From Neocallimastix sp. 'constans' (taxonomy: Eukaryota), in NCBI GenBank assembly GCA_050613775.1, contig JBODTK010000012.1:186001-250000 (forward strand): a stretch of 64,000 nt of DNA, written 5' to 3'. The translations under genes were made by a program, and so were the position numbers. A model generated the notes under the pieces. That model saw nothing but the letters and a program-made list of their open reading frames with translations, was not told where the DNA came from and did not search any database. This document shows, piece after piece, positions 15,725 to 39,294 of the stretch. Within the stretch, counting starts at the first letter, position 1. The number at the start of each line of letters is the position of its first letter.

Positions 15725-15780
15725 ATTTATAAGAAAGGCGGTTTTAAATAACGGATATATTTTTATAAATAAGAGCTAAT

Positions 15781-17645: not shown

Positions 17646-18171
17646 TGTTAGATGGTCAAATGTGATGTATTTAATTATGTTAACTTTATTATTGTAACGA
17701 GAGGAACACTCAAATAAGAGAAAACAATAGGCAGCACTGAATATTAATAATAAGTAAAAAATTGTTTTGTTAGAAATTGTATTATTTAATATTTTTATTT
17801 TTTTTTTTTTAAAGATAAATTTATTTAAAATATTTAATTATTAATTAATTAATATTGTAATATATCAAATTACTTATTATTAATTAATCAATTAATAAAA
17901 GCACGAATTAAAAATATTTCTTTTGTGAAAATTTACTCATATTTATACTTTTTACGGAAAAACAGTTTGTATGATTTTCAAAAATTTTAGAATCTTAGAA
18001 AAATCGTTTAAAACTGATTTTCTCGGTTAATTTAGAAACTAATGGAAAAAAGGATAAAATAAAATAAAAAATTCAATTTAATTATTAAGAATTTCTATGA
18101 AATTCTTAAAGAAAATATAGAAAGAATTAACTAGAACAATGAAAATAAAATATTCAAAAAGTAGGTTTAAT

Positions 18172-18233
18172 GGTGAATTGAACTCGAATAGTTTGATTCA
18201 TGGCTATAGCTCTAACGACTATACCAAGATTTC
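18172..18233 (-). promoter_or_regulatory. tRNA-type (type 2) Pol III promoter inside LTR U3
   Basis: Minus-strand A box TGGTATAGTCG starts at 18226. B box GTTCAATTC starts at 18183, 43 nt downstream, which is tRNA-like spacing. Confidence 0.6.
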
Positions 18234-18248
18234 TTTTTACAAATTGTT

Positions 18249-19100
18249 TGATACGGGGTGTCACTAAATACCTTGTATTTCCTATTAAATACTCTTAATA
18301 ATAATAAAATAAAATTATTATTAAATATTCTTATTAAAATCTTTTATTAATATCAAATCTAATAAAAATAATTATTAAATATTTTATTAATATTAAATAT
18401 AATAAAAATTATTACTAAATATTCTTATTAAAAATTATATAATATTTAAATCATTACTAATTCTTATTTTTATATTAAGAATAATAAAAACCTATTTCAA
18501 TAAATATTTGATGTAAAATACAGAATTATAAGTTTCTGTATAATATTTTCTAAAACCTTTGAAATAAACTAAAAATAAAACAAAATTAAAAATAAATTAA
18601 ATCTTTATTAAAATAAAAATGAACTAAAATACAGAAGAATTCCAATAATAAAAATGATCTAAAATACAGAAAATATCAATTCTGTATAATTTTCTCTCTG
18701 AATAACAATATCATGAAGAAGCTACCGCCTGGAATGCCCTTCGTGATACAAGCTCCAAATTAATTTTTTTATATTTTTATTTAATAAATGTTATTTTTTT
18801 TTTTTTTAAAAAATAATTTAAAATAATAGTTAAAAATTAAAATAAAATAGTTATAATAGTTTTTTTTTTATAAAGAATATATTAATAATAAATAAAATGT
18901 ATTAAAATAAAAGTATAAAAAGAAGAATAAATTTCTTTCTTTTTAATACTTGGAACAAATAATTTTAATTTTAAATTTAAATAAAGAATATTTTAAAATT
19001 TAATTTTTTTCTTGTTTCCAAATTTATTTTTATAGTTATGTGTTAATATTTATTTTTTTTTGTTTTGAATATCTTAGTGTTTCAACCCCAGCCCGTATCA
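18249..19100. mobile_element. Stack unit A: solo-LTR-like element, 4-bp TSD TGTT
   Basis: Perfect 9-bp terminal inverted repeat TGATACGGG...CCCGTATCA. TGTT at 18245-18248 and 19101-19104. Confidence 0.75.
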
Positions 19101-20408
19101 TGTTTGGTAAAGAATGAATTAATAACCTTTATTTTATTATTGTACTTTCCTATATTGTTAAAAAGTAAACAGGTTGAATTTAACGAGGAATCAGGTTGAT
19201 ATATCTATATAATATAACTATATAGATATAAGTAAATTACTAAAATAAAAGAGTTATAAAGTTAAATTTGTTAATTTAACACTTAATTAAAACTAATAAT
19301 TGGTTTGATATGATAAAAATTTTTATTTATTAATAAAAATATATAGTTATATTATAATAGGTTAACTATAACCTTACAAAGGACAAAAAGATAAATTTGA
19401 ATTTTCTTTTTATACTTTGTAGGTTTGAGAATATTGATAATAATAATATAAAGTTGATAATAATAATATTTAGTATAAGAATATGTTTAATATAAATAAA
19501 TTATATTTTTTAATCTAATATATTAGCTAATATATATAATATAATATTAAATTTAAATATTTAATATAGTAATTAATAATTAATAATTAATTAAATCAAT
19601 ATAACATAAATTAATACATAAACATTAATTTATGAATCAAGGATGACATGACCAAATGATTCATGTTAATAAATATTTTATTTATTAATAATATTTAAGT
19701 TTAATATGATATCATTAGAATCAGTAGGCCTAAGCTGGTCCTAAGATGATCAAATAACTTATAATATTATAAAATAAATAAAATTTAAAGAATAATTAAT
19801 GAATTATAAATTTTTATTAATTATTTTGTTTTTAATAATTTTAATTGAAATTAATTGAAATTGAAATTTAATTCAGTTGTAATTTCGACAACGCCCTTCC
19901 ACAAAAATCGGATTCCAGACGATTTTGTGTAACGTTACATAAAGAAATTATTATATTTATAAAATTGTATATTTTAAAAAATTTTTTTTTTTTTTTTTTT
20001 TTTGAAGTAAAAAGGTCACATGAGTCCTTTAAAGAACACATTACAAGTGGCCATTTCATGGAAATTTCGAAATTGTCAAAATTTACTGAAATTAAAATTT
20101 TGTTATAAAATTAAATATCGAGAAATATAATGGTGTGAATTTTATTAAAAATTTCGTTGAAAAAATGTAAAATTGAAATTTTGAAATTGAAATTGAAATT
20201 TCATCTTAATTTTATGCATTAAATTGAAAATTTTTAAATATAGTGAAAATTTATAATTTAATGAATATAATAATGTAAAAATAAATAAAGTATTATTAAA
20301 TTTCGATTTTTTAAAAATTTTTGAAATTTTGAAATGTAAAATTTTAAATTAACTAATTTAATTTTGAAATATTATTATTTAATATACTATTTATAGCTTA
20401 AGTATAAT

Positions 20409-20458
<50 letters not shown>

Positions 20459-20464
<6 letters not shown>

Positions 20465-23400
20465 ATAAGAAAGAGAAGTGAATTTTCTATTATTCTTTAA
20501 ATATTCTTGATATATTCTTTGATTCCTTGGATTATTTTCAACTTCATAAGAAGGCACCCAATTACTTGAACTTTTATATTTGTATCTAACTCTATATTCG
20601 TAGCAGTTTTTCTTGTAGTTTGTCCTAAATCCAGAAATTTCAATAATATCATTAATGGATTCATTGTGCGAACTTCTATTTAAAAACTTTTGCGGAGTTG
20701 GGACATAAGGTTCCAATTCAGAGATATGAAAGATTGGATGATGTTTTGGAAAAGGTGACTTTTTAAGATCAATTTTATAATTATTATTCTCTAAAACATC
20801 GATTACCTTGTAAGGTCCATATTTGCAAGGAGCGAGTTTAGAACAATCTTCAATATTTAAGGAAGGAGGTGCTTGAATCCAAACCAAGTCACCTTCTTTT
20901 ATTACAGGAGGTGGCATCCTTTTCTTATCCGCATAATTTTTATATAATTCTTTAGATCTTAATAAGACATCTTTAATATGATTAAAACTTGTACTTACAT
21001 TTTTAATAAATTTACTATTAGTATCAACTTGGGGTAGTAAGAAATATTCGTCCATAGATGGATGAAATCCATAGTTAATAAAGAAAGGTGTTTCTTTTGT
21101 AGATTCATTGACTGAATTATTATAAGCGAACTCTGCAAGATAGATCCAATTAATCCAATCGTCGTGATAATAAGATCTTGAATAAGCTCTTAAATACTGT
21201 TCAATAAAGGAGTTACATCTCTCAACTTGACCAACAGTCTCATGATGATCTGTTGTAGCTAATTTGGATTTAATATTAAGTAATTTCATGAATTCTTTCC
21301 AAAGTGCACTTGTAAACTGAGGACCTCTATCTGTATACATATCATAAGGAAGGCCATGTAATTTATAAACATTATTCATAAATGCTTTGGCAGTTTGTTT
21401 TGCATCAGGAATTTGTTTGAAAGGTATTAAGTGAATCATTTTAGAGAAACGATCCACTACAACCATTATTACCGTATATCCCTTTGAATCCGGGAGGCCA
21501 CATAAAAAGTCAACTTCTATAGATTTCCAAGGTCTATCAGGTGTTTCCAACGGTTGTAGAAAGCCATATTTCCTATGTCTATTAATTTTATTTCTTGCAC
21601 AACATTCACAGGAATTGACAAATTTTATAACATCATCTTGCATTTTGGGCCACCAAAAGTTTCTTGTAATTAATTCAAGAGTTCTTTTAATTCCAAGATG
21701 ACCAGCGGAAGGCTTTTCATGATATTTAGTTAAGATTTCTAATCTTAAAATTTCAGGAATATAAATTAAATTATTATATAATATAATATTATCCTTTATT
21801 TTGAACTTATTCATTTTCCTAAAGGGTTTATAGGACATATCATTTTTAATATTCTGTGGGCTAAAATAGAGTCTAATATCATCAGCTGTGGCATCTGTTT
21901 TTGTAGCTTCTATAATTCTTTCTAAAAGATCGCTAACAACACCAATAAAACATGGAACTTCCTTTACATTTTTTATGTCAAGAATATTTTCGGTTTTAGT
22001 TTCTTCATTATTTTTTATATAATCTGGTCTTCTTGAAAGAGAATCAGGTTTTCCATTATTGGAACCTTGTCTATAAATTAATTCAAAATTATATTCTTGG
22101 AAGAACATATGCCATCTATGTTGCCTTTGATTACCAATTTTACCACCAAGGGTATATAATAAGTTCCTATGATCAGTATAAACAGTTACTTTGTATTTCG
22201 CACCAAGTAATAAATGTCTCCATGCCAAAAAGGCTTCTCTAATAGCTAACAACTCCTTGTCTGTAATAGTATAATTAATTTCTGCACCTTGTAAGCTTCT
22301 TGAGAAATATGCAACTGGATGTAATTTATTATTATCATCCTTTTGTGATAAAACAGCACCAAGGGCAAAGTTACTTGCATCACATTCAACAATAAATGGT
22401 TTATTATTATCCGGATGGAATAAAACTGGAGAACTGGTTAATCTTTTCTTTAATTCTGAGAATGATTCTTCACATTTGTTATTCCAATTAAATTTAATAT
22501 TTTTTCTGGTTAAATTATGTAAAGGTTTTGCAATTTTTGCAAAATCTTTAACAAATCTTCTATAATAATTGCAAAGACCTAAAAACCTCTGTACGTCCTT
22601 TAAGTTATTTGGTTGAGGCCAGTCTTTAATTGATTCTATTTTCTTCGGATCGGTAGTGACACCTTGACCTGATAATACATATCCAAGGAATTCAACTTTC
22701 TCTTTATCAAATTCGCATTTTTCTAATTTTGCATATAAGTTATTATTAATTAATGCTTGCAAAACCTCCCTAACTTGTTTATGATGTTCTTTTAAATCTT
22801 TGGAGTAGATTAAAATATCGTCTAAATAAAGAATAACACTTTTTTCTAAATATGGTCTTAGTACCGAATTAATAAACGATTGAAAAGTAGCTGGTGCGTT
22901 TTTTAAACCAAATGGCATAACTAAGTATTCATAGTGACCATATTTAGTTCTGAAAGCTGTCTTGTATTCATCCCCTTCCTTAATACGGATTAAATTATAG
23001 GCTGAACGTAAATCTAATTTTGTAAAATACTTTGCTCCTTTAACCTTTTCAATAATTTCATTAATAAGAGGTATGGGGTACGAGTTTCTTATAGTAACAG
23101 CGTTTAACTTCCTATAGTCTACGCATAACCGAAGTGTACCATCTTTTTTCTTTTGGAATAGAACTGGATAACCTGCAGGTGATTCAGATGGTCTAATAAA
23201 TCCTTTTTTTTAGGTTTTCTTTTATATATTCCTTCAAAACTTTATTTTCCTCTTCGGTTAAGGGATAGATTGGACCATAGTGAAGGGAAGCGTCCTTCTC
23301 CAGCACTATTTTGCAGTCGGTTAAACGATGTGGGGGAAGTTTATCGGCTTCGGCTTTACTAAAAACAATAAATAGATCGCGATATTGAGGCGGAATATCT

Positions 23401-24362
23401 TCAATATTTGGATCTTCATTGTCATTTTTATTAATTTCTTTATTTGATAAGAAGGAATATATTAAAAAATTGTAATTATAGTCATTGTTTAAATTAAAAT
23501 TGTTTTTTAAATATTTATTTTGTTTTTTGAAATAATATTTATATTTATTAATAAAATAATGATTTTTATTAAAAAATTTTTTATAATTAAATTTATCACA
23601 AAATTTTGAAAATTTATTAAGGTTAAGGTTATTAAGTTTTTTATTAAAAAATTTTTTATTATAATTAAACTTCTGATCAAATTTTTTTAAATTTTTTGAA
23701 AAATTTTTATAATTAAATTTTTTTATTGATTTATTAAAAAGTAAATAATTTTTTAAAATTTTATTTTTCATCGACTGTAGATATAAATTGTTTTTGCAAT
23801 ATTTATTAGGATTTTTGTTATTTTTATTTGAAAAATAATAATTTAAGTAAGAATATAATATATTCTTATCATAATTATAGTGAATTTTGAATTTTCGCAT
23901 GAATTGATTACCAAAAAGTAGATCAGTTGGTATGCAATTTGTTATTAGAAATTTTTCATTGTAATTTTTAAAATAAAATTTTTTATTCTTTTGTATTTTT
24001 ATTTGAAATTTTAGCCAAACGTACTGATCTATCTTAGTAGTAGAACCAGATATACCTTTGACTGAAATTTTATTTTTTAAATTATAAATTTTTAAATTTA
24101 GTTTTTGAACTAAATTTTTTGTAATAAAATTACAAAATGATCCAGAATCTAGCATAGATTCAGATGTAATTTTTTGGTTATTTTTAATTTTTAATTTATT
24201 ATTATTAATTGGTAGTCTTGTTGGAATGTAGCAATGGAATAAAAGAAAAGTTGAAGGTAGTTTTTGGGTTGTGATGTTATCAAATGAAGGAAAGTTATAA
24301 TAAATTGTTTTTACATTTTTTGATGAATTGGACTCCGAGTGAAGTCCTTCATTTAGTTTTTT
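20459..24362 (-). CDS. pol: Chromovirus Pol (protease, RT, RNase H, integrase, chromodomain), with one frameshift in an 8-nt homopolymer at 23204-23211
   Basis: LDSGS (protease); LPPHR...[17 protein letters not shown] and YLDD (RT); ECDAS (RNase H); H..H..C..C and DRGPQF (integrase); GPY motif; C-terminal YEYRVRYKYKSSSNWVP chromo-like domain. Confidence 0.92.
24323..24362 (-). promoter_or_regulatory. -1 programmed ribosomal frameshift signal at the gag-pol junction
   Basis: A_AAA_AAC immediately before the gag TAA, followed by stem-loop ATGAA-GGACTTC-ACTC-GGAGTCC-AA-TTCAT. The -1 frame is open into the protease. Confidence 0.8.
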
Positions 24363-25432
24363 GAATTATTATTATTTGTACTATTATTACTGTTATTATT
24401 AATTTTATTAAAGTTATTATTATTATGGACTTTATTATAATTATTATTATAATATTTGTTATAATTGTTATTATTATTATATTTATTATTATTGTTGTTG
24501 TTGTTATTGTGGACATTAGAAGGCTTTTTCTTTAAATTTTTATTACCATTAGATTTTAATTGACCTTTAGATTTCAAGGAATTTTCGTAAAGAATACATC
24601 TAGTATAAATAGTACTAAGATCAGAAGGAAATTCATCCATTTTTTCTATTTCTTCCTGGAACCTTGGGTGCAATCCATTATAAAAGAATAAAACTAAAGC
24701 TTCTTCATTCCAATTCAAACATGTTGTAAGGGTTCGAAATTCATCAATATAATCATTAATTTTCCCAAATGTGTGAGAAATTTTTGCGAGTTGGATCATG
24801 GCTAATTTCTTACTGGCAACATTATTAAAAGCTTTCCTTAATTCTTTAATCAATTCTTCTAATGTTGCTAGACTTCTATCTTTATATTTGGCATAATACC
24901 AATTACGAGCACCATCTCTTAAGCGTGACTTAACATAATTAATTTTTACATCCATAGTAGATTCACAGTTAGGATAAGTCTTAAAAGTATCTTCACAGAG
25001 CTGACAAAAGAGATCGGTTTTCTTAGTATCCCCAGTGAAAAATCCAGGTTCTGGGACTTCTTGAAGTGTATTGGGAATAGTATTCCTCATTATTACATCA
25101 TTGTCTGCCTCTCTTCTTGTTGATATAGAAGCGTTATCATCTTGATTTTGAGAAGCATTAACATTAGGAATAAAATCGAATTTCTGATTTAAAATGCTGG
25201 TAATAGAAGAAAGTTGTTTTATGATATTCTTGTTATCCCTATTTAAAGTAAAAAGTTTCTTTTGAAGATCTTCATTATATTTATTAAAATCTTCTCTTGA
25301 TAAGAATGTAACTTCTGCATCTTTTGCCAGTTCAGAGACAGTAATCTGAGCGTCTGTTCTTAGCTTATTTACTTCCGACATAGGAGCAAAGTCAGGATAG
25401 GAGTTTGCCCACACGTTATTATAAAGGGACAT
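24353..25432 (-). CDS. gag: Chromovirus Gag, 359 aa
   Basis: PEPGFFTGD...KINYVKSRLRDGARNWY...YIDEFRTL...FYNGL retrotransposon capsid motifs, located just inside the 5' LTR. Confidence 0.9.
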   Translation of the reverse strand: MSLYNNVWANSYPDFAPMSEVNKLRTDAQITVSELAKDAEVTFLSREDFNKYNEDLQKKLFTLNRDNKNIIKQLSSITSILNQKFDFIPNVNASQNQDDNASISTRREADNDVIMRNTIPNTLQEVPEPGFFTGDTKKTDLFCQLCEDTFKTYPNCESTMDVKINYVKSRLRDGARNWYYAKYKDRSLATLEELIKELRKAFNNVASKKLAMIQLAKISHTFGKINDYIDEFRTLTTCLNWNEEALVLFFYNGLHPRFQEEIEKMDEFPSDLSTIYTRCILYENSLKSKGQLKSNGNKNLKKKPSNVHNNNNNNNNKYNNNNNYNKYYNNNYNKVHNNNNFNKINNNSNNSTNNNNSKN

Positions 25433-27197
25433 ATCAAGGTGATTCTCTTTTCTAAGGTAAGGTTATTGTTAAAAAGTAAACAGGTTGAATTTAACGAGGA
25501 ATCAGGTTGATATATCTATATAATATAACTATATAGATATAAGTAAATTACTAAAATAAAAGAGTTATAAAGTTAAATTTGTTAATTTAACACTTAATTA
25601 AAACTAATAATTGGTTTGATATGATAAAAATTTTTATTTATTAATAAAAATATATAGTTATATTATAATAGGTTAACTATAACCTTACAAAGGACAAAAA
25701 GATAAATTTGAATTTTCTTTTTATACTTTGTAGGTTTGAGAATATTGATAATAATAATATAAAGTTGATAATAATAATATTTAGTATAAGAATATGTTTA
25801 ATATAAATAAATTATATTTTTTAATCTAATATATTAGCTAATATATATAATATAATATTAAATTTAAATATTTAATATAGTAATTAATAATTAATAATTA
25901 ATTAAATCAATATAACATAAATTAATACATAAACATTAATTTATGAATCAAGGATGACATGACCAAATGATTCATGTTAATAAATATTTTATTTATTAAT
26001 AATATTTAAGTTTAATATGATATCATTAGAATCAGTAGGCCTAAGCTGGTCCTAAGATGATCAAATAACTTATAATATTATAAAATAAATAAAATTTAAA
26101 GAATAATTAATGAATTATAAATTTTTATTAATTATTTTGTTTTTAATAATTTTAATTGAAATTAATTGAAATTGAAATTTAATTCAGTTGTAATTTCGAC
26201 ATATATTCTTGATAACCTAAACTTAATAATAAAATTTAATTTATTTTGATATAAATTAATTTTAACTTGTAAATAATGTAAATAAATTTTAATTAATTAT
26301 TTTATTGTTATATTATTAAATATATGTATATTAAAATACAATTGTAAATATTAAAATTATACTTTTAAGATACTAAATTATTAAAACTATTAATTAAATA
26401 TTATTATAAAAATTATTATAAAATTATTAAAATTATTAATTAAATATTATTATAAAAATTATAAAATTATTAAAATTATTAATTAAATATTATTCTAAAA
26501 ATTATTATAAATTATTAATATTATAAAATTATTAAAATTATTAAATATTATTATAAAAATTTATTTATTATAACTATTAAATATTATTATAAAATTATTA
26601 AGATTATTAATTAAATTTATTATTAAAAATTATTATTAAAAATTTTTACTTATTATAAAAATTATTATTTAAATATTATCAAATTTATTAATTAAATATT
26701 ATAAAAATTTTATTTTATTTTGAAAATAATTACAAGTATTATTTAAAATAATTAAAGATTATTAAATTTATTATATTAATCTTTAAAAACAATTTATTTA
26801 ACTTAAAAATATCAAAGAAAATAGTAAAAACTATTTTCTATATATTTATTTTATAATTATTTTTAATTAAATTATATTTGAATATTATATTATTATATTT
26901 ATAAAAATTAAAACAAAAATGAATTATTGATATAAAATTAATTCAATAATTCTATAAAATTACTTAAATTATAAACAACTAATTATACCTTAAATTCATA
27001 AAAAATTATAAATATTGTAAATATTTCTTAAAAATTAAATATGTGTACTTTAAATAATAAAATTTTATATTAATAAATAATAAACGCTTTTTAATAAAAA
27101 AAAAAAAATTTTTCTTTGTTAAAATCAAAGCAGGGTAATACCCGTCCCCCCCTGCTTGATTTTAAATCAATAAGAATCACCCCGAGTCTACCATGTT

Positions 27198-28029
27198 TGT
27201 TACGGTACAATTAAATAAAGAAAAATTAAACTATTTAAAGAAAATATTAAAGTAAAAAATATCATTAACAATTATAAATAAATAATAAAAAATTGAATAT
27301 TAAAATATTAGTTATAGAATATTATAAAGTTAAATAAAAATAATTAGATGTATTAAAAAATCATGTATTAATTATATTATTTAATATTGTAAAATTTTTA
27401 TATAATATTTTAATAATTTAGAAAATTTAAGTTTATTATATTTTTATTACTATATTTTTATTATTAAATTTTTATTATTAATTTTTTTATTTTTATTTTT
27501 AATCCAATCAAATAAATATTTTATTAGTATAAAAAAGAACAAAGTAACACAATACTTTTGTTCTCTCCCTTTTTTTCTTACGACTTTATTATTATATTAT
27601 TTTTTTAATATTTTCTAAAAGTTAAATAATAAATTAAATAGTTTAAAATAAATTAAAATTTATTAAATAGTTTTTTCTAAATTTAATGTTTTAAAAGTGT
27701 TTAATTAATAGTTTTTTGTGTTTAGTGTATAATATTAAGATAAATATAGTATAAAATTAGTTTAGTAATAGATTAGTTGTATTAAACATTTTATAGAAAT
27801 AGTAATAGATTTAGAGAAATTGTTTAGTTTAGATTAGAATAGTTTAGATTAAGATATTAGTTTAAGTTATTTTAACTTAGTTTAAATTCTTTTAGATTAG
27901 GATAGTTTAGACTAAAATTAGAGTAGTTTATTAATTAATTTAGGTTTAGAATTAGAGAATAATATTTTAAATTTTTCCTTATTATTAGAATATATTATTT
28001 TATTAATAAAATCTTCAGATCTTGTACCA
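27198..28029. mobile_element. Stack unit C: solo-LTR-like element, TSD TGTT
   Basis: TGTTACG...GTACCA termini. TGTT at 27194-27197 and 28030-28033. Confidence 0.7.
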
Positions 28030-28032
28030 TGT

Positions 28033-29758
28033 TGGTGTAATAATTCTATTAAGAACTAACTCAAAATAGAATTATTAACTACAACTTAACGACTAATTCA
28101 TTAAGTTGAGAAAATAAAATAAAATAAATTTTTTTACCTTTAGAGTAGAGTTTATTATAAAATTAATTATAATAATAACACAAAAAGTAAGAAAAGAATT
28201 GTTTGTATAAATTGATTTTAAAAATATGTTTTTGAATAAAATATTTTTATTAATTTATTAAAGTTAAAAATATAAAATTGTTACTATTATAACTATGTTT
28301 TTTATAATAATAACTCTTGATTTCTCAAAGAGAACTCAAGAGCCTTATTTATATTTTTTTATGAAAATAAGGTTAAATAAGAAAGGGTTTTCTAATCTTA
28401 ACAAATCTCTTATCTAGGAAAAGATTAGATAGAAAAACCTAGATAAGTTTCCGATCGATATTCTATCCATATCGATCATCGCATTAATTAAGTAAAACCG
28501 ATTACTTCTAAAAAGTAATTGGAAAAAATCTTAATTAACCGATTTTCCAATCTAATGATCGAAAATAAAAGAATAAAATAATAAAAGATATTTCGATCAT
28601 ATAATTTATCCTTATATTAAAAATATAAAATTAAATAGTTAATAAAATACAGAATACATTATAAAATACAGAATACATTATAAAATACAGAATAAAATAC
28701 AATACAAAATACATTAGTTACAGTAGAGAATTTAGCATATTGTAAATATATTATTTAAAATTAATTAAATAAATTTTGTTAAATTAATGAATATTTAAAA
28801 TTAAATTAAATAATTTAATAAATATTATATGTAATTAAATAAAGTTATAGTTATAATAACTTAACTAAGAAAATATAATTATTTGCTAACAAATAATTAT
28901 AGATTCTTACAGTTGGTAAAGAACGAACATATAATGGATTATTAATTAGAATTTCAACTTACTTTAGAATCCATTATATTATTCTTTACTTAATATTACT
29001 TTACTATATTTTCTATACTAAAATATTTTCTAAATATATTTTTTTTTTTTTATATTTTTATTAAAAGTTTCTAAAATATTATCAATAATTTTATATTTTT
29101 ATTATTAATATCAATATCTATAATTTAATCTTAAATTTTATTATTTTATTAAAGTGTTTATTATCAATATTAATATTTTATTTTTATTTTCAAATATATT
29201 ATTATATTATTATTATATTGTATCAATATTAAACTTGTATTCTTTTTAGTATTTTATTTTATTTTTAAATTGATTATTTTATATTTTTATTCCCCACAAA
29301 TAAAATCAAATCTTAATTGATTAATAATAAATATTAAATATATTATAGTTTTTAAATTTATTTTATATAAAATATAAGAATATTATATTAACATTCTTGA
29401 TTAAAATAACTTTATTTTTCTGTAAAATCTTTTTAAATTTTGTTTGTTACTTTTCGTATATATTAAATAATTTAGTTTTAGTATATGAAAAATAATATAA
29501 AATTATGTAAACAAAATTTATTAAAATAAAAATACTTATGAATTAGTTAATTTAAATTAATATAAAATTTTAAGTAATTAGTAATAGTAAATATTTTTTT
29601 TTAAATATGATAATAAAATGTAGAAAGGCTTTACATATTTATTTTTTTTTTTTCAAAAAGTATAAATAAGTGAAGTTTTTCAATAATTAAAATGTAGACA
29701 GAAAAATATTAAAAATAAATAATTAAATAAAAATTCTAATAAAACCCGAACCATAACA
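28033..29758. mobile_element. Stack unit D: solo-LTR-like element (TGGTAAAG...CATAACA), TSD TTGT, interrupted by the solo LTR at 28036-28911
   Basis: Removing the nested LTR restores TGGTAAAGAACG. TTGT at 29759-29762 matches host sequence 18244-18247. Confidence 0.6.
28036..28911. mobile_element. Solo LTR, 876 bp, TSD GTTGG
   Basis: TGTAA...TTACA ends. GTTGG at 28031-28035 and 28912-28916. Inverted relatives at 29767-30600 and 38441-39284. Confidence 0.85.
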
Positions 29759-29766
29759 TTGTTAAT

Positions 29767-30688
29767 TGTAAGAATCTATAATTATTTTTAAATAAAATAA
29801 TTATTTTTTCTTAGTTAAAGATATAATTATAACTTTATTTAATTATATAAAATTTATTCATTTAAATATTATTAATAATTTATTTAACCCATATTAAATA
29901 AATTTAATACAACAAAATTTATTTAATTAATTATTATTTATACATTTATTAATAATTATAGTTTATTTAATTATACATTTAATTATTAAATTTATTAGTT
30001 TTAGTTTATTTATTTAATTAAATTGTAAACAAATGTATTATGTATTCTAATATGTATTTTAATAATGTATTCTGTATTTTGTTTATTAATATCATTATGT
30101 TATTTTCCTTATTTGTAAATTTATAATTTTATGATCGAAATATCTTTTATTATTTTATTCTTTTATTTTCGATCAATTACATTAGATTAACGAATCGGTT
30201 AATTAGGGTTTTTTCCCAATTACTTCTTAAAAGTAATTGGTTTTACCTAATTGATACGATGATCGATATGGATAGAATATCGATCAAAAATCTTATCTAG
30301 GTTTTTCTCTCTAATCTTTTCCTAGATAAGAGATTTGTTAAGATTAGAAAACATTTTTTAATTTAACCTTATTTTTCAAAAAAGTATAAATAAGGCTCTT
30401 GAATTCTCTTTGAGAAATCAAGAGTTATTATTATAACAATTATAATATAGTAATAACATTAATAAATATTTTATATTTCTATTTTAATAAAGCAAGTTTT
30501 AATAAAACAAATTTAAAAATAAAATAAAATAAAATAATCTTTTTCCTTTGTCAATTCTGTGTTATTAGTTTATTATAATTAGTTATAATAAACTCTTTCC
30601 TATAGAAGATAAGTATATTCCCTACTGTTATCGTCCAAATAAAATAAAATAAATATTGATATTGATGTTTAATAAAAATATCGTATCA
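29767..30688. mobile_element. LTR related to 28036-28911 in opposite orientation; right boundary uncertain (stack unit E)
   Basis: Reverse-complement similarity, e.g. the cgatatggatagaatatcgatc and ctctttgagaaatcaagag blocks. Region ends CGTATCA before TTAG. Confidence 0.6.
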
Positions 30689-30692
30689 TTAG

Positions 30693-31661
30693 TGGTAAAG
30701 AATGAATTAATAACCTTTATTTTATTATTAATAATTCTTTACTAAATTGTACTTTCCTATATTCCTGATAACCTAAACTTAATAATAAAATTTAATTTAT
30801 TTTGATATAAATTAATTTTAACTTGTAAATAATGTAAATAAATTTTAATTAATTACTTTATTGTTATATTATTAAATATATGTATATATTAAAATACAAT
30901 TGTAAATATTAAAATTATACTTTTAAGATACTAAATTATTAAAATTATTAATTAAATATTATTATAAAAATTATTATATACTATTAATATTATAAAATTA
31001 TTAAAATTATTTAGTATTATTATAAAAATTTATTTATTATAACTATTAAATATTATTATAAAATTATTAAGATTATTAATTAAATTTATTATTAAAAATT
31101 ATTATTAAAAATTATTACTTATTATAAAAATTATTATTTAAATATTATCAAATTTATTAATTAAATATTATAAAAATTTTATTTTATTTTTGAAAATAAT
31201 TACAAGTATTATTTAAAATAATTATAGATTATTAAATTTATTATATTAATCTTTAAAAACAATTTATTTAACTTAAAAATATCAAAGAAAATAGTAAAAA
31301 CTATTTTCTATATATTTATTTTATAATTATTTTTAATTAAATTATATTTGAATATTATATTATTATATTTATAAAAATTAAAACAAAAATGAATTATTGA
31401 TATAAAATTAATTCAATAATTCTATAAAATTACTTAAATTATAAACAACTAATTATACTTTAAATTCATAAAAAAAATATAAATATTGTAAATATTTCTT
31501 AAAAATTAAATATGTGTACTTCAAAAATAAAATTTTATATTAATAAATAATAAATACTTTTTAATAAAAAGAATTTTTTTTTTTGTTAAAATCAAAGCAG
31601 GGTAATACCCGTCCCCCCCTTCTTGATTTTAAATCCATAAGAATCAACCCCGAGTCTACCA
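30693..31661. mobile_element. Stack unit B': solo-LTR-like element, 969 bp, 4-bp TSD TTAG
   Basis: TGGTA...TACCA ends. TTAG at 30689-30692 and 31662-31665. Confidence 0.85.
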
Positions 31662-32070
31662 TTAGTATTCGTTATATGGTCCTCCTCAAGGATTCGGATA
31701 CCAAACGAATCTTAAATTTAAATTATTTTTAAAATAATAAAAAACTAATCTATATTAATAATATATCAAATAAATTTTTAATCAAAGAATTATACAAGAG
31801 TAAATTTTCAAATACATCTTAATAATAAAATACATGAAATATTTAAATTTAAAAATAAAGTATATAAAAAGAAACTATCTAAGATACATGTTTTTAATTA
31901 TAAAATAAAAATAATAAACTTTAAGTAATAATAATAATAATTAATTAAACTAAATTATAACTAAAACTAAACTATAAAAATATTAGATTATTAATAAAAG
32001 TTAAAGTAATATATATTAATATTAAAATTATTGATTATTTGAAAAAAGTAAAAGGTAGTGAATTGTAGTT

Positions 32071-32776
32071 TTAGGGAGGTTTATTTTCATACGGAAGAAA
32101 AGTATCATATTTAAATATTTTAAATTGATAATGTTTTTTCTTAACTTTTGCAATGTTTGAATTATGGATTACAAGAAATAAAAAGTGATTTATATTTTTC
32201 TTTTTAATTTGAAATAATAAATAAATATTGATTGTTTGATTACTTGGATAAGTGGAAGAAAAATTTTGACCATTTGAAATAAAATTTTTAAAAGATTTTG
32301 AATTTTGATTAGTCTGAATAAGGTTTTCATGAAAATTTGAATTTAGTTTAACAAAGGAGTTCACCCTCTCCTTCGGAAAATTAGAATTATTATTTAAAGA
32401 TTTAGAGTTCTGAGTATGAATATATTTATTAATAGTGGGGTTGTTTGTACTAAAGGATTTATTAATTTTACTATGAAAAGAATCGGATATTGATATTTTA
32501 GCAGATTTGATAAAAGAATTATTGGATTTTCTAATAAATTTTTTGTCTTCATTTTCTTTAATATATTTCTTTAAGGCTAGAGATTCTTTTTCTGTTAGGG
32601 GATAAATAGGGCCATAATGAATTTTTTGCGTTTGGCTTTAGTTTAATTTCGCAATCATAAGGACGATGAGGTGGTAATTTATTAACAGATTTTTCGTCAA
32701 ATACATCCTTGTATGGAAGAAATTTTGCAGGTAGTATTTTTTGAATATCATTATTTATTTCATTAGTTTCATTATG
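32071..32776 (-). pseudogene. N-terminal RT fragment of the non-autonomous chromovirus-like element, running on into unrelated low-complexity coding sequence
   Basis: YKDVFDEKSVNKLPPHRPYDCEIKL...[10 protein letters not shown]...FIRKS, then non-RT sequence to the stop at 32071. Confidence 0.75.
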
Positions 32777-33847
32777 TGTAAAAATAAGAAAAATAAAATT
32801 AAAATAAAAGTTGGAATTACTTTTAAAATTATTAATTTCACAATTAGAAAATAATAAATAAGAAATTATAATAAATTAAAACTTTAAAATAAATATTCGT
32901 CTAAAAACGAATATATTAAATTAATGAAATAAATAAATAAAGTTAATAAAAAAATGGGCTTTAACTTTAAAAGTCCATAACTCCCCAAATCGCCGCGATG
33001 GAGGGTTAAAAATAGGCGAAGAGAAAAATAATTTCGTCATCATACGAGGTCTCAAAGCCTCCTAGATGTCGAGATATTTACATTTAAAGTTTAAGGGTGT
33101 TAATTAAAATTAACTAGAATTTTTTATAATTATTTTTATTATAATTTAATTATTAAAATATAAATAACATATATCAAATATAAAATATACCCTTATTAGA
33201 TTAGGAAATTAATTACAAAATAATTAATATTTTAATTTTTTAATTATCTAGATAATATTAAAGAAAACTTAAAACAAAATAAATAAGGGATCCAATTTAT
33301 TATTAAATAATTAAAATAAAAATTTATTTAGATTAGGAATTAATAATAGAAATATAGTGTAAAAATTTTATAAGCCATGTAAATATAGTTTAGGAAAAAT
33401 ATAAATAGTTTAGTTTTTATTTTAAATTAATCTTGGAAAAAGATTATTGAAAAATTATCTCTGACAATTTATCTTTAATTGAAAATTTTATTATAGAAAT
33501 TATAATTAAGACTTTCTATTTTATAAAAATTATATTGAACTTTTTATTATTAAACTTTTATATCAATAAATAATAAATAAAATTAATTTAATTTTAAAAA
33601 ACCAAAGTTTCTTTATTATACATTAATTACGTGTTACCAAATAAAATTTATATGAATTATTTATTCGGATTATATTCTAATTAAATAATCTATTGATTCA
33701 TAAAATAATTATCTTGTTTTAATAATAAAAGAACCCTAACCAAATAACAAATAAAATACAGAGTAAAAATTTTTCTAACCTAGTTATTCTAATCTTTAGT
33801 CTGTGTAACCTTGTATACGTATCCCAATCAGACTAAGTCTCTTTACA
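32777..33847. mobile_element. Solo LTR, 1071 bp, TSD TTATG, inserted between protease and RT
   Basis: TGTAAA...TTTACA ends. TTATG at 32772-32776 and 33848-33852. Confidence 0.8.
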
Positions 33848-33852
33848 TTATG

Positions 33853-35100
33853 TTATTCGTTTTTACTTGGGTTATGTTCTTCAGTACAAATAGAAACAGT
33901 AAAATTTGATGGGATAACAAGACAGTTATCAATACAATGATTTGATTTAAAAGAAAGTTTATTAGAAGTAAAGTCTATAGTAGGATTATGAGTAATAAGC
34001 CATTCAGTTCCAAGAATAGCACAATATGATGGAAGGTCAACTACATAAAATTTAGTTTTGCAAATATGGTTTTCATGCTGAATAGAAATTGATGAAGTTT
34101 TTCCTAAGATTTGTTGATTGTCTCCGATTCCAGAGACTCTAGGAAAGTCAGATTGAGAAGAATAAGGAATATTATTTTCTTTAACAAAATAGACATCAAT
34201 TAGGTTTAATTGAGATCCTGAATCAAGGAGAATTTTAATTTTTGTTTTAGAATTATTAACTTTAATAGTAAATTCATATATTGGAAGGTTTACATTTGGT
34301 AGATCGGAAATCCTTGGTCTAGTAATAGTTTTAGGTTCTAGATTGCTGATATGAACATTGCTTGAAGAGCTTTTATATTTATTTCTTAAAGGACAGTTGT
34401 TAAGTGAATGTTCAGAAGAACCACAGTACATGCATAGATTTTCTTTTCTTCTTTTATCTTTTTCTTCTTTCGATAATGAACTGCGAGTTTGAAATTTTGG
34501 TTTTCCTTTGGGTGGAGGTCTTCTGCTATTGTTATTTTTATTTGAATGATTTTGATGATTGAAAAATTGCCTCCTAGTTGAAAGTCGAGAATCAAGTCTA
34601 GCAGCAATTGTTTGTAGAGCAAAAAGAGTTTGTGGTCCAGGGAACATTTCAAGTATCTTGGTAGCTACTTGATCCTGTAGACAAATGAATGCATCCATTT
34701 TAGCTTCTTCATTCCAAGAAGACTCATCAGCATACTTGTTGAATTCCAAAATATAGCTTCTTATATCTCCAAGTCGCTTTTGTTTTATTGTTCGTAACTT
34801 TTGATTTGCTACGAAGGTAGCATCATTGTTCCCAAACATAGCTTTAAGTCTTCCAACAAAGGCTTCATAATTATTCAAGCATGGATTTTGGTTTTCTATT
34901 AAAGATGCGGCCCAATTCATAGCAGAACCATAGAGTTGAATTATTAAATATACAATTTTTGTTTTATCGTCAGCAAATTTGTCGGGATAGAGCATAAAGA
35001 CTAACTCTATCTTAGCAAGAAAACCTTTAAAGAAACGACGGTCTCCAGAAAAACCAGTTTTAAAAGTAGAATTATTATCAGTAAAATTGTCTTGTTCCAT
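33853..35100 (-). CDS. Gypsy Gag-protease, 415 aa
   Basis: FSGDRRFFKGFL...LYGSAMNWA (capsid), CMYCGSSEHSLNNC (zinc knuckle), LLDSGS...ILGTEWL (aspartic protease). Confidence 0.9.
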   Translation of the reverse strand: MEQDNFTDNNSTFKTGFSGDRRFFKGFLAKIELVFMLYPDKFADDKTKIVYLIIQLYGSAMNWAASLIENQNPCLNNYEAFVGRLKAMFGNNDATFVANQKLRTIKQKRLGDIRSYILEFNKYADESSWNEEAKMDAFICLQDQVATKILEMFPGPQTLFALQTIAARLDSRLSTRRQFFNHQNHSNKNNNSRRPPPKGKPKFQTRSSLSKEEKDKRRKENLCMYCGSSEHSLNNCPLRNKYKSSSSNVHISNLEPKTITRPRISDLPNVNLPIYEFTIKVNNSKTKIKILLDSGSQLNLIDVYFVKENNIPYSSQSDFPRVSGIGDNQQILGKTSSISIQHENHICKTKFYVVDLPSYCAILGTEWLITHNPTIDFTSNKLSFKSNHCIDNCLVIPSNFTVSICTEEHNPSKNE

Positions 35101-36086
35101 CTTTATGTATGTTTTAATTTAAAATTATTTTCAAATAGTAATGAAATAATAAATCAATTTTTTACAGGAATAATAATTAAGTAACTAGAATATAATCACA
35201 ACAATAAAAAACAAATTCTGTTACTTATAACAAGTAGGCGAACAAATTTATAAAAGCCTAAAATAAAAAATAAAAACTATATAATTTTAACGTCACTTCG
35301 CAAGAATGACAAGGGTTTTATCAGGGATCGAACCTGACCCACCTCTTATTTTATGCGCGAGTGAACAAACTATCACCTGTTGAAGTGTGTAGTAACCCTC
35401 AAGCGTTGAAGGTTTTACATTTCTAGGTGTTATAAACCTAATTGTCAAAGGTTGGCTCCTTTGAGATACCCGCATTTACTATCTACAAAATTTTGCAAAA
35501 TAGTAAATAAGAGTATATGAAATTAATATTTGGCAAGCCGACACTGTCTATACTCAAATATTAATTTCGTAAATTTGTTTACTTTTTACAAATATTTTTA
35601 AATTGATTTATTATTTATTTTATTATTCGTTAAAGAATAATATAGCAATTAAAATTAACTTTAAAAAAATATAAAGTATTAAATCTTTTGTTTCTTTTCT
35701 TTTCCGCACCGCTGTTCATTCAGTTTATCAACCGAAGAGCTGCAATATAGGACTTACGCCTCAGCCTACCAGCGAGGGTCGGTAACGTACTTAGAAAAGT
35801 ATATAAACAAAAGGTTTAAGATTTAAAAATAAGGAAGTGTTATACAAGACTTTCCTTGATTATATTAATTAAGTATTAACGTAATAATTTCTTCTATTAT
35901 TAGGAGAACTACGTATTTAGTTCCAAGATTTATTATACGAATTCCGAGGATGACTGTTTGAATAAAGAAAGTAGTAATTAAAACGAATAATAGGTAGAGT
36001 AATCTAAAGTTTTCTTTTAAGATATTAAAATTCATGTATAATTTTGAAAGAGTACTAAAAAAGTTATGATTCCAAAATGACAGAGT

Positions 36087-36270
36087 TCCTTAACAGGGTT
36101 TCCTTAACAGGGGTTCCTTAACAAGGGTTCCTTAAGTAGATATTTCCAAAAAGTAGATTCAAAGAGATAAATACTTCCAAAGGATAGTAGATCCAAGAGG
36201 TAAAAATTTCCAAAAAAATAAAAGATCCAAAAGGTAGATATTTAAAAAAAAATAGTAGATCCAAAGGGTT
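36087..36270. repeat. Tandem repeats in the retroelement 5' leader: four TTCCTTAACAGGG-like units, then TCCAAA...GTAGA units
   Basis: Visible directly. Confidence 0.7.
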
Positions 36271-37265
36271 CATGAATTCAGTGCCAGGTATTGTATGGTA
36301 GTAATAGGTGCTTTTATTGTAACGGAAACCTGGGTGTTCCAATACTAAAAGGACACTTAGAATAAGTAAACTAAACACAAGAATTAGTAAACACAAAATA
36401 TTAATATTGGAGCACTTGATTCCTTTGTTGATTAGGAAGGTCGGTGCTGAAATATTAGTAATATTGGTTTTATTTATTATTTTATTTATTTAATTATTTA
36501 TTTAAAAATTGTTTTATTAGAAAGATGTTTTATTACTAATAATAATAAACTACGTTAAAATACGATAAAAGCACGAAGAGAAATATTTTCAAGTGAAAAT
36601 TCATACCTATTTATACTTTTTACAGAAAAACAGTTTGTATGATTTTCAAAAATTTTAGAATCTTAGAAAAATCGTTTAAAACTGATTTTCTCGGTTAATT
36701 TAGAAACTAATGGAAAAAAGGATAAAATAAAATAAAAAATTCAATTTAATTATTAAGAATTTCTATGAAATTCTTAAAGAAAATACAGAAAGAATTAACT
36801 AGAACAATGAAAATAAAATATTCAAAAAGTAGGTTTAAGTGAATCAAACTCGAGTAGTTTGATTCATGGCTATAGCTCTAACGGCTATACCAAGATTTCT
36901 TTTTACAAATTTTAGTATTCGTTACAATTATATGAATATTATAATATAAAGAGTACATTTATTTAATAATATGGTTTACATGCAATTTATATATATCAAA
37001 TGTGGCTTTTATCCTTTAGACACTAACGTAATGTAATGTACATGATTAATGTATACATAGAATATTCACATATTCTAACATTCCCCCTCAAACCTAGTTA
37101 TTTTTATAGAATAAATTGGTTTGTTGATGAATATGTATATTTACATATTATGATAATTATTATTTAAATCTAAATTTTCTAAGACTAAATTTTCTCTAAT
37201 TTAGACTATTTTAATACATAAATTTCGAAAAATTATAATATATTATATAATTTCTTTTATGTAAA

Positions 37266-39294
37266 TGTAACGGTTTACACCCAATAGGTCTACACTAATA
37301 AGTAATTCGTTTTCTTAAAAAATTTGTTTTATTAATATTTTTTATTAAAATATAAAATTTATTATTATTCTTTATTATTAATTAGTTATTGTAATATTTC
37401 GAATTACTTTTAACTAGTTAATAAAAGCACAAAGAAAAATTATTTTTTATTGAGAAATTCACGCTTATTTATACTTTTTCGGAAAAATAGTTTCGGAAAA
37501 AGTTAAGATTAACGAAAGTTCGAAAAATTAAGTTTTCTTTCTAGAAAATGAATCTTATAGAAAAATGATAAAATAATTATTAAAATAGAACTTTCTAGTT
37601 TCATTTAGTTATATAATATTAACCAAAGAAACTCTAGAACTTTCTACAATAATTTAATTAATTAACTAAAAATAATTTAGATTGGGAAAGGGTGTGAGTC
37701 AAACCTAAGAAGTTCAGCTTCATTGTCATGGTGTATTACCACCAGACTACAACAACAATTTTACTAACTTTAGGATTCGTTACATTGTAAAATAAAATAA
37801 TAGCTTAGGTCGGCGAGGACAGACTATAATTTATTTTACACTATTTTATTATATCAACACTAATATTAATTATTAACTAAAACACTAAAACTAAAAAACT
37901 AATTTAATTTTTTGTTTTATAAAAAAAATCCTTTTATTAATATTTCTTATTTGTTGAATTTAACTATTCTAAAATCAACAATCACTTAACTGGGTACCGT
38001 AGGGTCCTTTACCGGAAAGCCTACTAGCAGTTAAGATTTTAAAATAAAATTTAAAATAAAATTTGCTTTATAAAAGATAACTATTCTAATAATAGTTATA
38101 ATACTAATTAATAAAATATAAAATTTGTACTATCTATCTTATCTATAATATTTCCTATACTATTCTATTTTCTAACTAAATTATACTATTTTCTATACTA
38201 TTTTCCAACTATCGTTCAATAGTTGAAAATTAACTCTTTTTATACTTTTTGAAAATTAAAATTTAAATTGAATAGATTGTAATAAACTAACTAAAATATT
38301 ATTATATATTTGTAATTACATTTAATAATAAATTACATGAATTTTTATGAGTTATTTTAATATAAAAACTATTTAAAACTATCTAATATTTCTAAAAATA
38401 AATAAACAAAACGGCAAGTTTTTGTAAACAAACGGATTCGTGTAAAGAATTATAATTATTTTTCAAAATAATTATTATTCTTTATTAAAAAATTAATATT
38501 TAAAGTTTATTATTTTATAAAATTTTATGAATAATTTTATTAATTATGTCACATAGTAATTATTAATTAATGTTATTGTTTTAAAATTTATTTACATTAA
38601 ATTAAATTATCAATAATTAATATATTAAATTATAATAATGTATTATTGTATTAAAATAATGATAAATTCTATTTAATTAAGAAAAATTAAATTGTATTAA
38701 AATGATAATTCTATTTAATCAAGAAATAATTAAATTATATTATTTCTTGGACTTTTAATTAAGATAATTAAAAGAATTAATTATTTAATTTTACTTGTGA
38801 TTAAATATTAATAAAATTAATATATAATTAGTTAATAAGTTTTCTCCCTTATTCGGGTTTTCTTATTAACTAAAGATTGATGTAATTAAACACCAATCGA
38901 GATCTATCTAGTTTTTTCTTCTAATCTTTTTCTAGATAGAGATAATTTTCCAAGATTAGAAATCAAATTAATATAAATAGGACTCTTGATTCTTCTAAAA
39001 ATAATCAAGAGTTATTATTATAAGAAATTATAATAATTAACACAAATATTTAAAATTACTTTTAAATAAAAAATTTTTATAATAAAATAATTTCTAAAAT
39101 TCTCTTAACCTACTTTTAGTGTTGTTTATTATAATCTTATAATAAACTCTAAGTTTTTAAATTTTCGTTTTCAATTTTTATATTATATTTTTTAATTTTA
39201 TCTCAATTAATAATATTTTTTATTATTAATTGTAGAAAGAATTAATTATTAATATAATTAAATATTTTAAATTAATTCTTTACAATTCGTTACA
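37266..39294. mobile_element. Two abutting LTRs (37266-37784 and 37786-39294) inside a single GTAAA TSD; the second is interrupted by solo LTR 38441-39284
   Basis: Both end GGATTCGTTACA. GTAAA at 37261-37265 and 39295-39299. Confidence 0.65.
38441..39284. mobile_element. Solo LTR, 844 bp, TSD ATTCG
   Basis: TGTAAAGAAT...ATTCTTTACA ends. ATTCG at 38436-38440 and 39285-39289. Confidence 0.85.

What the first reader, a model, noticed from the sequence alone, without database searches (positions are those of the whole stretch)
18172..31676. Ordered stack of elements inserted repeatedly at one site upstream of a Pol III promoter inside an LTR
Seen: at least five TG...CA units lie end to end, separated by 4-bp duplications: TGTT at 18245, 19101, 27194 and 28030; TTGT at 29759 (host copy at 18244); TTAG at 30689 and 31662. 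All map within about 1 nt of the same position, roughly 11-16 nt upstream of the +1-equivalent (18233) of a tRNA-like A/B-box promoter. The overlap of the TGTT target with the first T of unit D shows that D came first. If each new unit lands next to the promoter, the order is B', (E), D, C, B, A. The sister LTR (36318-36926) has its B box changed to GTTTGATTC and carries no insertion. Known: Ty3 integrates at Pol III start sites through TFIIIB, and the C of GTTC is critical for TFIIIC binding. Inference: one retroelement's LTR acts as a Pol III landing pad for several site-specific families and leaves a chronological array.
Basis: partly seen in the sequence, partly recalled or inferred. Interest (0 to 1): 0.87.

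Follow-up and report, generated by a model that had tools for sequence, protein, structure and literature searches.

The report
Seven retrotransposon ends stacked at promoter
In what is likely an anaerobic gut fungus, seven short mobile-DNA units (one family shown to be a retrotransposon end) sit end to end within a 4-base window inside another retrotransposon, just upstream of a tRNA-type promoter motif, likely because they home on RNA polymerase III start sites as yeast Ty3 does.

Summary
The stack has seven units, not five or six: unit D is two insertions. Removing the units restores the host LTR end, with one mismatched TSD base. The promoter-side edges fall at -11 to -14 from the +1-equivalent of an A/B-box motif. 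Only two such strict motifs occur in the 64 kb (0.1-0.15 expected); the other is a tRNA gene. A metagenome contig (L007) shows unit B is the solo LTR of an intact, chromodomain-less Ty3/gypsy element from a gut-fungal clade outside the sampled chromoviruses. A third B copy lies 645 nt upstream of a decayed tRNA gene, in the same orientation. This works like Ty3, DGLT-A and Tj1 targeting. New here are the host lineage, the 4-bp-TSD clade, the depth of the stack and a target inside a chromovirus LTR. Not shown: genome-wide targeting (no genome held), promoter activity, and most of the chronological order. The scan earlier noted a two-LTR stack at a yeast tRNA gene.

The parts
17693..36926 (-). 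Host element: deletion-derived chromovirus-type Ty3/gypsy (gag-protease ORF 33856-35100, most of pol missing), 5-bp TSD ATTAT, itself inserted in an LTR of element K
   Evidence: closest gag-PR relatives (49-68% identity) are mostly chromodomain (PF00385) gag-pol proteins
17693..18248 (-). Main part of the host 3' LTR; carries the A box, B box and T5 run near its U3 5' end
18216..18226 (-). A-box-like TGGTATAGTCG (+1-equivalent at 18233); resembles the D-arm of the window's tRNA at 4109
   Evidence: consensus recalled, one mismatch
18175..18183 (-). B box GTTCAATTC, 43 nt after the A-box start; a T5 run (possible Pol III terminator) follows at 18160-18156
18249..19100 (+). Unit A, 852 nt, TGATACGGG..CCCGTATCA, 4-bp TSD TGTT (-12 to -15); likely solo LTR, orientation from TATA at nt 665
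19105..27193 (+). Unit B, solo LTR (1038 nt without G), TGGTA..TACCA, TSD TGTT; 880/898 aligned bases identical to B'
   Evidence: LTR identity shown by L007
19156..26201 (-). Element G: young full-length Ty3/gypsy of the chromovirus side of the tree, nested 51 nt into B, 5-bp TSD TATAT, identical LTRs; not at the shared site
27198..28029 (.). Unit C, 832 nt, TGTTAC..GTACCA, TSD TGTT; likely solo LTR, orientation and clade uncertain
28036..28911 (-). Unit D1, 876 nt, E-family LTR-like unit in reverse, 5-bp TSD GTTGG (-13 to -17), inserted after D2
28914..29758 (+). Unit D2, 845 nt, TGGTAAAG..CATAACA, 4-bp TSD TTGT (-11 to -14); shares its first 10 nt with B
29767..30688 (+). Unit E, 922 nt, related to D1 (663/746 aligned bases) with a different last ~85 nt; 5-bp TSD TTAAT/TTAGT with one mismatch (-14 to -18)
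30693..31661 (+). Unit B', solo LTR of the B family, 969 nt, TSD TTAG (-14 to -17); 230/238 identical to the L007 3' LTR
31662..31676 (-). Displaced 15-nt 5' tip of the host 3' LTR, with the polypurine tract next to it
36318..36926 (-). Host 5' LTR: same A box, B box GTTTGATTC, no insertion
37266..37784 (-). Distantly related solo LTR with A/B-like boxes at the same place (B box GTTTGACTC), no insertion at -11 to -14
58760..58959 (-). B'': truncated third B-family LTR (176/194 aligned bases to B'), preceded by TTTT, facing away from the tRNA gene at 59604
58964..59589 (-). Unit Z: decayed LTR-like unit (TATA, CA end, no intact TG start) between B'' and a TTTT at -11 to -14 of the tRNA gene; a candidate second stack, not proven
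   Evidence: no significant similarity to the stack units
59604..59675 (+). Decayed tRNA gene (GCA at the anticodon position, both boxes mutated)
   Evidence: Rfam RF00005 39.2 bits; fails the A/B scan

Best explanation
Seven LTR or LTR-like units lie end to end at one 4-nt site 11-14 bases upstream of an A/B-box motif inside a chromovirus LTR, likely because integrases that dock on the Pol III initiation complex (TFIIIC/TFIIIB) inserted there repeatedly, each element likely collapsing afterwards to a solo LTR. The motif is internal to the Pol III unit, so each insertion would leave it intact and the site would be regenerated for the next one. Shown: the geometry, the TSD chain, that B is the LTR of an intact chromodomain-less gypsy with its U3 end facing the motif, and a partial order (D2 before D1, D2 before A/B/C, B before G). 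Inferred: that the motif binds TFIIIC, that A, C, D1, D2 and E are solo LTRs, that new units always land next to the promoter, and that the 5-bp-TSD family (D1/E) uses the same cue.
For: TSD edges at -11, -12, -12, -12, -13, -14, -14, and removal of the units restores the host LTR end. Strict A+B motif: 2 in the window, one being the tRNA gene at 4109; 0.1 expected (30 dinucleotide shuffles) and 0.15 (60 local shuffles, maximum 2). Published windows: Ty3 1-4 bp upstream of the TSS (about 15 bp from the mature tRNA), Tj1 5-11 bp, DGLT-A 13-33 bp, Tca8 6-30 bp (PMC5911963, PMC5006619, PMC4600332, passages). L007 has gag, a 1352-aa pol, a polypurine tract and then the B LTR; its integrase ends 41 aa after the GPY/F motif, like DGLT-A's 32-aa tail. 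All 3 B-family copies in the window face away from a Pol III-type unit, one 645 nt upstream of an unrelated tRNA gene. The 2 related LTRs with T in place of the B-box C carry no insertion. The four other insertions whose ends I checked (G, host, K, one copia) have 5-bp TSDs and lie elsewhere.
Against: No genome is held and no second intact insertion site with flanks was found: 1 of 11 metagenome hits was real and it ends inside the LTR; 0 hits in five further scans. The host segment does not match the Rfam tRNA model even in a 141-nt search. With one B-box mismatch allowed the motif is common (6 seen, 3.5 expected). The intact tRNA-like gene at 4109 has no insertion upstream. The second locus is decayed: Z lacks a TG start, and TTTT is a common word. 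All seven targets share the same left-hand host sequence, so sequence or structure preference is not separated from promoter docking at this locus. Two units have 5-bp TSDs and probably come from another clade.
Confidence: 0.7

Rival explanations
1. A sequence or structure hotspot. The integrases prefer the DNA at the host LTR's 5' tip (ACAAATTGTTAG, next to two hairpin-forming inverted repeats), and the A/B boxes are incidental.
For: All TSDs are drawn from the same TTGTT(A)G stretch. The stacked LTR has a G there that the empty sister lacks, so occupancy tracks this base as well as the B-box C. The region folds into two hairpins (z -4.7 in the sister). No Rfam tRNA match.
Against: The right-hand context changes with every insertion while the position stays within 4 nt. 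The TSDs differ (TTAG, TTGT, GTTGG, TGTT). B'' sits after TTTT upstream of a tRNA gene with no sequence similarity to the host LTR. The hairpin is better in the empty sister than in the stacked copy (z -4.7 versus -1.1).
Confidence: 0.15
2. Self-homing. One insertion landed by chance, and later elements target junctions of existing LTR ends, building the array in no fixed order.
For: Every unit abuts another LTR end. The order of A, B and C, of C versus D1, and of D2 versus E/B' is not fixed by the TSDs. D1 lies three bases inside D2. The window is a dense nest of elements.
Against: It leaves the fit to a rare A/B motif at the Ty3 distance as a coincidence (roughly 1 in 100,000 by the rate for a 10-nt window; the motif was chosen after the fact). 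The nested elements I checked (G, host, K, copia) sit inside LTRs or ORFs, not flush at LTR tips.
Confidence: 0.1
3. Some units (A above all, with 9-bp terminal inverted repeats and a 4-bp TSD) are non-autonomous DNA transposons that share the site, not solo LTRs.
For: A has perfect TGATACGGG/CCCGTATCA ends. No internal region was found for A, C, D1, D2 or E.
Against: B is shown to be an LTR (L007). D2 shares B's first 10 nt. TATA-like boxes lie where an LTR has them. This would change the identity of some units, not the site specificity.
Confidence: 0.05

Closest known systems
Ty3 and its sigma solo LTRs (Saccharomyces cerevisiae, Metaviridae)
   Same: Gypsy order RT-RH-IN; insertion in a window of a few bases about 11-17 nt upstream of the mature-tRNA +1, leaving the internal A/B promoter intact (PMC5911963; bioRxiv 10.1101/2021.07.27.453949, passages).
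   Different: Ty3 makes a 5-bp TSD and contacts Brf1 through a chromodomain-like tail. The B clade has a 4-bp TSD and no such tail. Its pol scores 370 bits against Ty3 (integrase part 80 bits), against 478 for the untargeted element G. The target here is inside an LTR.
DGLT-A (Dictyostelium and relatives)
   Same: Chromodomain-less gypsy with a CCHC gag and a short integrase tail (32 aa versus 41 aa here). Mostly solo LTRs, on average 15 bp upstream of tRNA genes; several elements at one tRNA gene are noted (PMC5006619, passages).
   Different: DGLT-A has a single ORF and either orientation; L007 has gag and pol in separate frames, and all 3 B copies face away from the promoter.
Tj1 (Schizosaccharomyces japonicus) and Tca8/beta (Candida albicans)
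   Same: Gypsy elements inserting 5-11 bp (Tj1) or 6-30 bp (Tca8) upstream of the mature tRNA; Tj1 has a fixed orientation (PMC4600332, PMC5911963, passages).
   Different: [quoted passage not shown]
Helenus / TRIMp3 (LTRs carrying a tRNA-derived Pol III promoter; PMC10886601)
   Same: A and B boxes inside an LTR, 5-bp TSD, no functional cloverleaf.
   Different: Helenus are TRIMs of 311-1263 bp without proteins, found in rust fungi, agarics, animals and plants. The host here has a 4.6-kb internal region with a chromovirus gag-protease and its own TATA box. In the parts read (1, 2 and 4 of 6, plus passages) the paper does not report such LTRs as integration targets and does not mention Neocallimastix or Piromyces.

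Membership tests
Pol III start-site-targeting Ty3/gypsy retrotransposons (Ty3, Tj1, Tca8, DGLT-A as a functional kind) | Unit is the LTR of a Ty3/gypsy element (RT-RH-IN) | tested here: met
   B and B' match the 3' LTR of L007. Shown for the B family only.
Pol III start-site-targeting Ty3/gypsy retrotransposons (Ty3, Tj1, Tca8, DGLT-A as a functional kind) | Insertion within a few bases, about 10-17 nt upstream of the mature +1 of a Pol III unit | tested here: met
   7 of 7 stack units at -11 to -14, at one locus; the +1 is inferred from the A box.
Pol III start-site-targeting Ty3/gypsy retrotransposons (Ty3, Tj1, Tca8, DGLT-A as a functional kind) | Genome-wide enrichment at independent Pol III genes | tested here: inconclusive
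   One further B copy 645 nt upstream of a decayed tRNA gene; no genome; collection scans gave no flanked copy.
Pol III start-site-targeting Ty3/gypsy retrotransposons (Ty3, Tj1, Tca8, DGLT-A as a functional kind) | Integrase contact with TFIIIB/TFIIIC and dependence on an intact B box | not testable with these tools
   Only correlation: 1 of 1 GTTC LTR stacked, 0 of 2 GTTT LTRs.
Ty3 lineage proper (chromovirus branch) | 5-bp TSD and chromodomain-like integrase tail | tested here: not met
   B family has 4-bp TSDs; integrase ends about 36-48 aa after GPY/F in the 16 B-clade proteins printed (read from the tails).
Ty3 lineage proper (chromovirus branch) | RT-RH groups with chromoviruses | tested here: not met
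   Quick ML tree, 56 selected rows: 18 B-clade rows form one clade (SH-aLRT 99) apart from fungal and plant chromovirus-type rows. Ty3 itself was not in the tree; midpoint root.
DGLT-A lineage | Phylogenetic grouping with DGLT-A | not tested
   No DGLT-A, Tj1 or Tca8 protein was available among the session's sequences.
Helenus / TRIMp3 (host element) | tRNA-derived A and B boxes in the LTR | tested here: inconclusive
   Boxes at tRNA spacing in 3 related LTRs (43, 43, 45 nt) and D-arm resemblance to the tRNA at 4109, but no Rfam tRNA match in the two segments searched.
Helenus / TRIMp3 (host element) | Short non-coding TRIM (under about 1.3 kb) | tested here: not met
   4.6-kb internal region with a gag-protease ORF related to chromodomain-bearing gag-pol proteins.

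The most novel reading that the evidence does not exclude
A family of gut-fungal chromoviruses carries a working Pol III promoter at the tip of its LTR and so spreads mobile landing pads or decoys. An independently evolved, non-chromoviral gypsy clade with 4-bp TSDs, and a second family with 5-bp TSDs, both integrate at its start site. One base in the B box switches the pad on or off, and the stack is a time-ordered record of which families were active.
Probability: 0.35. Interest if true: 0.8.

Novelty: new variant of a known kind. Interest (0 to 1): 0.6.

Why it matters
Pol III start-site targeting is known from budding yeasts, fission yeast and dictyostelids, and is explained as a safe-harbour strategy in compact genomes. 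If confirmed, this adds an early-diverging fungal lineage with repeat-rich DNA and a gypsy clade whose integrase lacks the tail Ty3 uses to contact Brf1, so a probably independent solution. It would also show one retroelement's LTR steering other families' integration. A genome-wide test needs only an existing assembly. An intact element of the B family exists (L007), which makes its integrase a candidate site-specific integration tool for anaerobic gut fungi, whose genetic tools are poor (my own knowledge). Nine literature searches of the open-licence library found no report of tRNA-targeted elements in Neocallimastigomycota or of an LTR-borne promoter serving as a target. Subscription journals, Repbase and supplements were not seen.

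Tried and rejected
No whole genome is held and no sequencing-run data were obtained, so copy mapping, dating and expression stay open. Collection scans: the B-end pattern gave 0 hits in viral contigs and 0 in genome contigs. A looser pattern gave 11 metagenome hits, of which 10 match only the 22-24-nt word in 37-66% GC DNA and were dropped as chance. Host-promoter and D1/E patterns gave 0 in viral contigs. The L007 pol found no relative in viral or genome contigs; its alignment found 4 distant, GC-rich elements with no tRNA nearby. A motif scan for TG..CA units with 4-bp TSDs was at chance level and is not used as evidence. Rfam found no tRNA match for the LTR promoter segments. Dating B against B' failed. 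CpG decay as the cause of the GTTC/GTTT difference is weakly supported at best. I tested whether Z is a copy of A, D2 or the LTR of the old element X and found no significant alignment (the and A-Z matches are low-complexity). Rejected: tandem duplication or assembly collapse (units are unrelated or 2-11% diverged and carry TSDs); G as part of the site-specific series; D as a single unit. The careful tree did not finish; only the quick tree is cited. Earlier-findings look-ups by place and sequence were empty.
Full report
Setting. The window is 21% GC and full of LTR retroelements. Its gypsy proteins have named close relatives from Orpinomyces sp. (71-83% for the inner element G) and a Neocallimastix lanati protein in a B-clade cluster, so the source is very likely an anaerobic gut fungus (Neocallimastigomycota). 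No whole genome is held.

The observation. Re-parsing gives seven units inside the host's 3' LTR: A 18249-19100 (TSD TGTT), B 19105-27193 (TGTT), C 27198-28029 (TGTT), D1 28036-28911 (5-bp GTTGG), D2 28914-29758 (TTGT), E 29767-30688 (5-bp TTAAT/TTAGT, one mismatch) and B' 30693-31661 (TTAG). B carries a 7-kb gypsy, G, 51 nt from its start, with a 5-bp TSD and 735/735 identical LTRs. Removing each unit with one TSD copy restores the host LTR tip. It then differs from the other LTR by one extra G, the terminal TG read as TA, and the one mismatched TSD base. The promoter-side edges of the TSDs lie at -11 (D2), -12 (A, B, C), -13 (D1) and -14 (E, B') from 18233. Single TG..CA units with 4-bp TSDs are at chance level in this DNA (20 seen, 19.6 expected), so the case rests on the chain as a whole.

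The host. It runs 17693-36926 on the minus strand with TSD ATTAT, and the empty site is visible in the other LTR of the element it split. It keeps a gag-protease ORF whose 33 longer relatives are mostly chromodomain-bearing gag-pol proteins and has lost most of pol. Its two LTRs agree at 297 of 303 aligned bases in U3 but only 182 of 230 in R-U5, so one is a recombinant or converted LTR.

The promoter motif. On the minus strand there is an A-box-like TGGTATAGTCG, a B box GTTCAATTC 43 nt later, and a T5 run about 15 nt after it. With recalled consensus boxes (one A mismatch allowed, spacing 40-50) the whole window gives two matches, this one and a tRNA gene at 4109. Expected numbers are 0.1 (30 shuffles) and 0.15 (60 local shuffles, maximum 2). 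With one B mismatch allowed there are 6 against 3.5 expected, so the relaxed motif means little by itself. Two of those six are the sister LTR and a related solo LTR at 37266-37784, both with GTTTG and both empty. The segment has no cloverleaf: Rfam gives no tRNA match, though its A-box region resembles the D-arm of the 4109 tRNA. Which B-box state is ancestral is open. CG decaying to CA and TG would explain both, but CpG depletion is weak, and the GTTTG form is shared by 2 of 3 LTRs and completes an 11-bp hairpin. That the C of GTTC is critical for TFIIIC is recalled; a passage of PMC5911963 says box B mutations abolish targeting of TRE5-A as they do for Ty3.

What the units are. One of 11 metagenome hits, L007, holds gag (CCHC), a 1352-aa pol, a polypurine tract and then the first 238 nt of the B LTR, 230 of them identical to B'. 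B, B' and B'' are therefore LTRs, with U3 facing the promoter motif. The pol belongs to a large clade: about 110 of the 120 listed hits are at 44-100% identity, the named ones from Orpinomyces. In a quick tree of 56 chosen RT-RH rows (18 B-clade, 18 G and chromodomain-type, 7 arachnid, 13 mostly plant) this clade stands apart from the chromovirus-type rows (Ty3, Tj1 and DGLT-A absent; midpoint root). Its integrase stops about 40 aa after GPY/F and is a poorer match to Ty3 than the untargeted G. A, C and D2 have TG..CA ends, 4-bp TSDs and TATA-like boxes but no internal region was found. D1 and E form a separate family with 5-bp TSDs and a distant relative at 38.9-39.2 kb.

A second locus. B'' (58959-58760, minus) begins after TTTT, 645 nt upstream of a decayed tRNA gene at 59604 and in the same relative orientation. 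Between them lies an LTR-like unit Z that ends in CA and starts after another TTTT at -11 to -14 of the tRNA. Z lacks a TG start and matches no stack unit, so this is suggestive only. Against the model, the intact tRNA-like gene at 4109 has nothing upstream.

Order. The TSD overlaps prove D2 before D1, D2 before A, B and C, and B before G. They do not order A, B and C, which share TGTT, nor D1 against C, nor E, B' and D2 among themselves. B and B' differ at 18 of 898 aligned bases, with one derived substitution each in the part that L007 covers. The full chronology is a prediction of the model, not an observation.

Mechanism. Most likely (0.7) TFIIIC binds the LTR's A/B boxes and places TFIIIB, and integrases that dock on this complex cut at the start site. 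The internal promoter survives, each element is later reduced to a solo LTR, and the next one lands between it and the promoter. Ty3 integrates at -2/-6 from the TSS with TFIIIB as the tether (bioRxiv 10.1101/2021.07.27.453949, passages); DGLT-A averages 15 bp from the mature tRNA (PMC5006619, passages); Tj1 inserts 5-11 bp upstream (PMC4600332, passages). Rivals are a sequence or structure hotspot (0.15), self-homing on LTR junctions (0.1) and DNA-transposon identity for some units (0.05).

Novelty. The behaviour is a known kind, and stacks at tRNA genes are known in yeast and Dictyostelium; this scan noted a two-LTR yeast case (not checked). LTRs with tRNA-type promoters are known as Helenus (PMC10886601; parts 1, 2 and 4 of 6 and passages read), but those are short non-coding TRIMs. 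I found no report, in nine searches of the open library, of tRNA-targeted elements in anaerobic gut fungi or of an LTR-borne promoter as a target; supplements and Repbase were not seen and may bear on this. Verdict: a new variant of a known kind, interest 0.6, limited by resting on one clear locus and one decayed locus.

Noticed in passing
window 4109-4552 (+): A tRNA-like gene with perfect A/B boxes, a 6-nt anticodon loop and an encoded CCA (Rfam 38 bits) runs into about 370 nt of GC-rich sequence with no T4 run and then a long T tract. It may be a tRNA-headed SINE or a Pol III tRNA-ncRNA transcript. No credible Rfam match for the body; fold z -1.1.
   Followed up: partly
window 17646-43534 (-): Element K: LTR element with TSD TTCTT that splits an old integrase gene. 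Its internal region holds an intact ORF (41809-42249) with a Lactococcin_972 bacteriocin Pfam hit (E 1.9e-5, above the curated cut-off); possibly a captured, horizontally acquired gene.
   Followed up: no
window 8826-11006, 16937-17641, 43563-43796, 58349-58477 (-): Decayed gag and pol fragments of the B clade, all on the minus strand. The integrase pieces at 43.6-43.8 kb and 17.6-16.9 kb are continuous across K. They may belong to old full-length members of a stack upstream of the tRNA gene at 59604.
   Followed up: partly
window 17693-17939 versus 36318-36607: The two LTRs of one insertion are 98% alike in U3 but about 79% in R-U5 with many gaps; D1 and E likewise share U3-R and differ in the last ~90 nt. 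This suggests LTR mosaicism between subfamilies.
   Followed up: partly
window 23193-23209: Element G has identical LTRs but a frame break between protease and RT, whereas a 100% identical database protein (P0001) is longer at 1189 aa; this is either an assembly indel or a recent mutation.
   Followed up: no
window 11219-16076, 44317-48507, 49009-55456: Three copia-type elements nested in the region; the first has TSD TTATT and lacks a detectable RT ORF.
   Followed up: no
window 61585-63865 (-): Peptidase M13 gene fragments at the right edge of the retroelement nest.
   Followed up: no
window 35330-35345 (-): A perfect-looking B-box word (GGTTCGATCCC) in the host's 5' leader, with no matching A box in the scans.
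   Followed up: no
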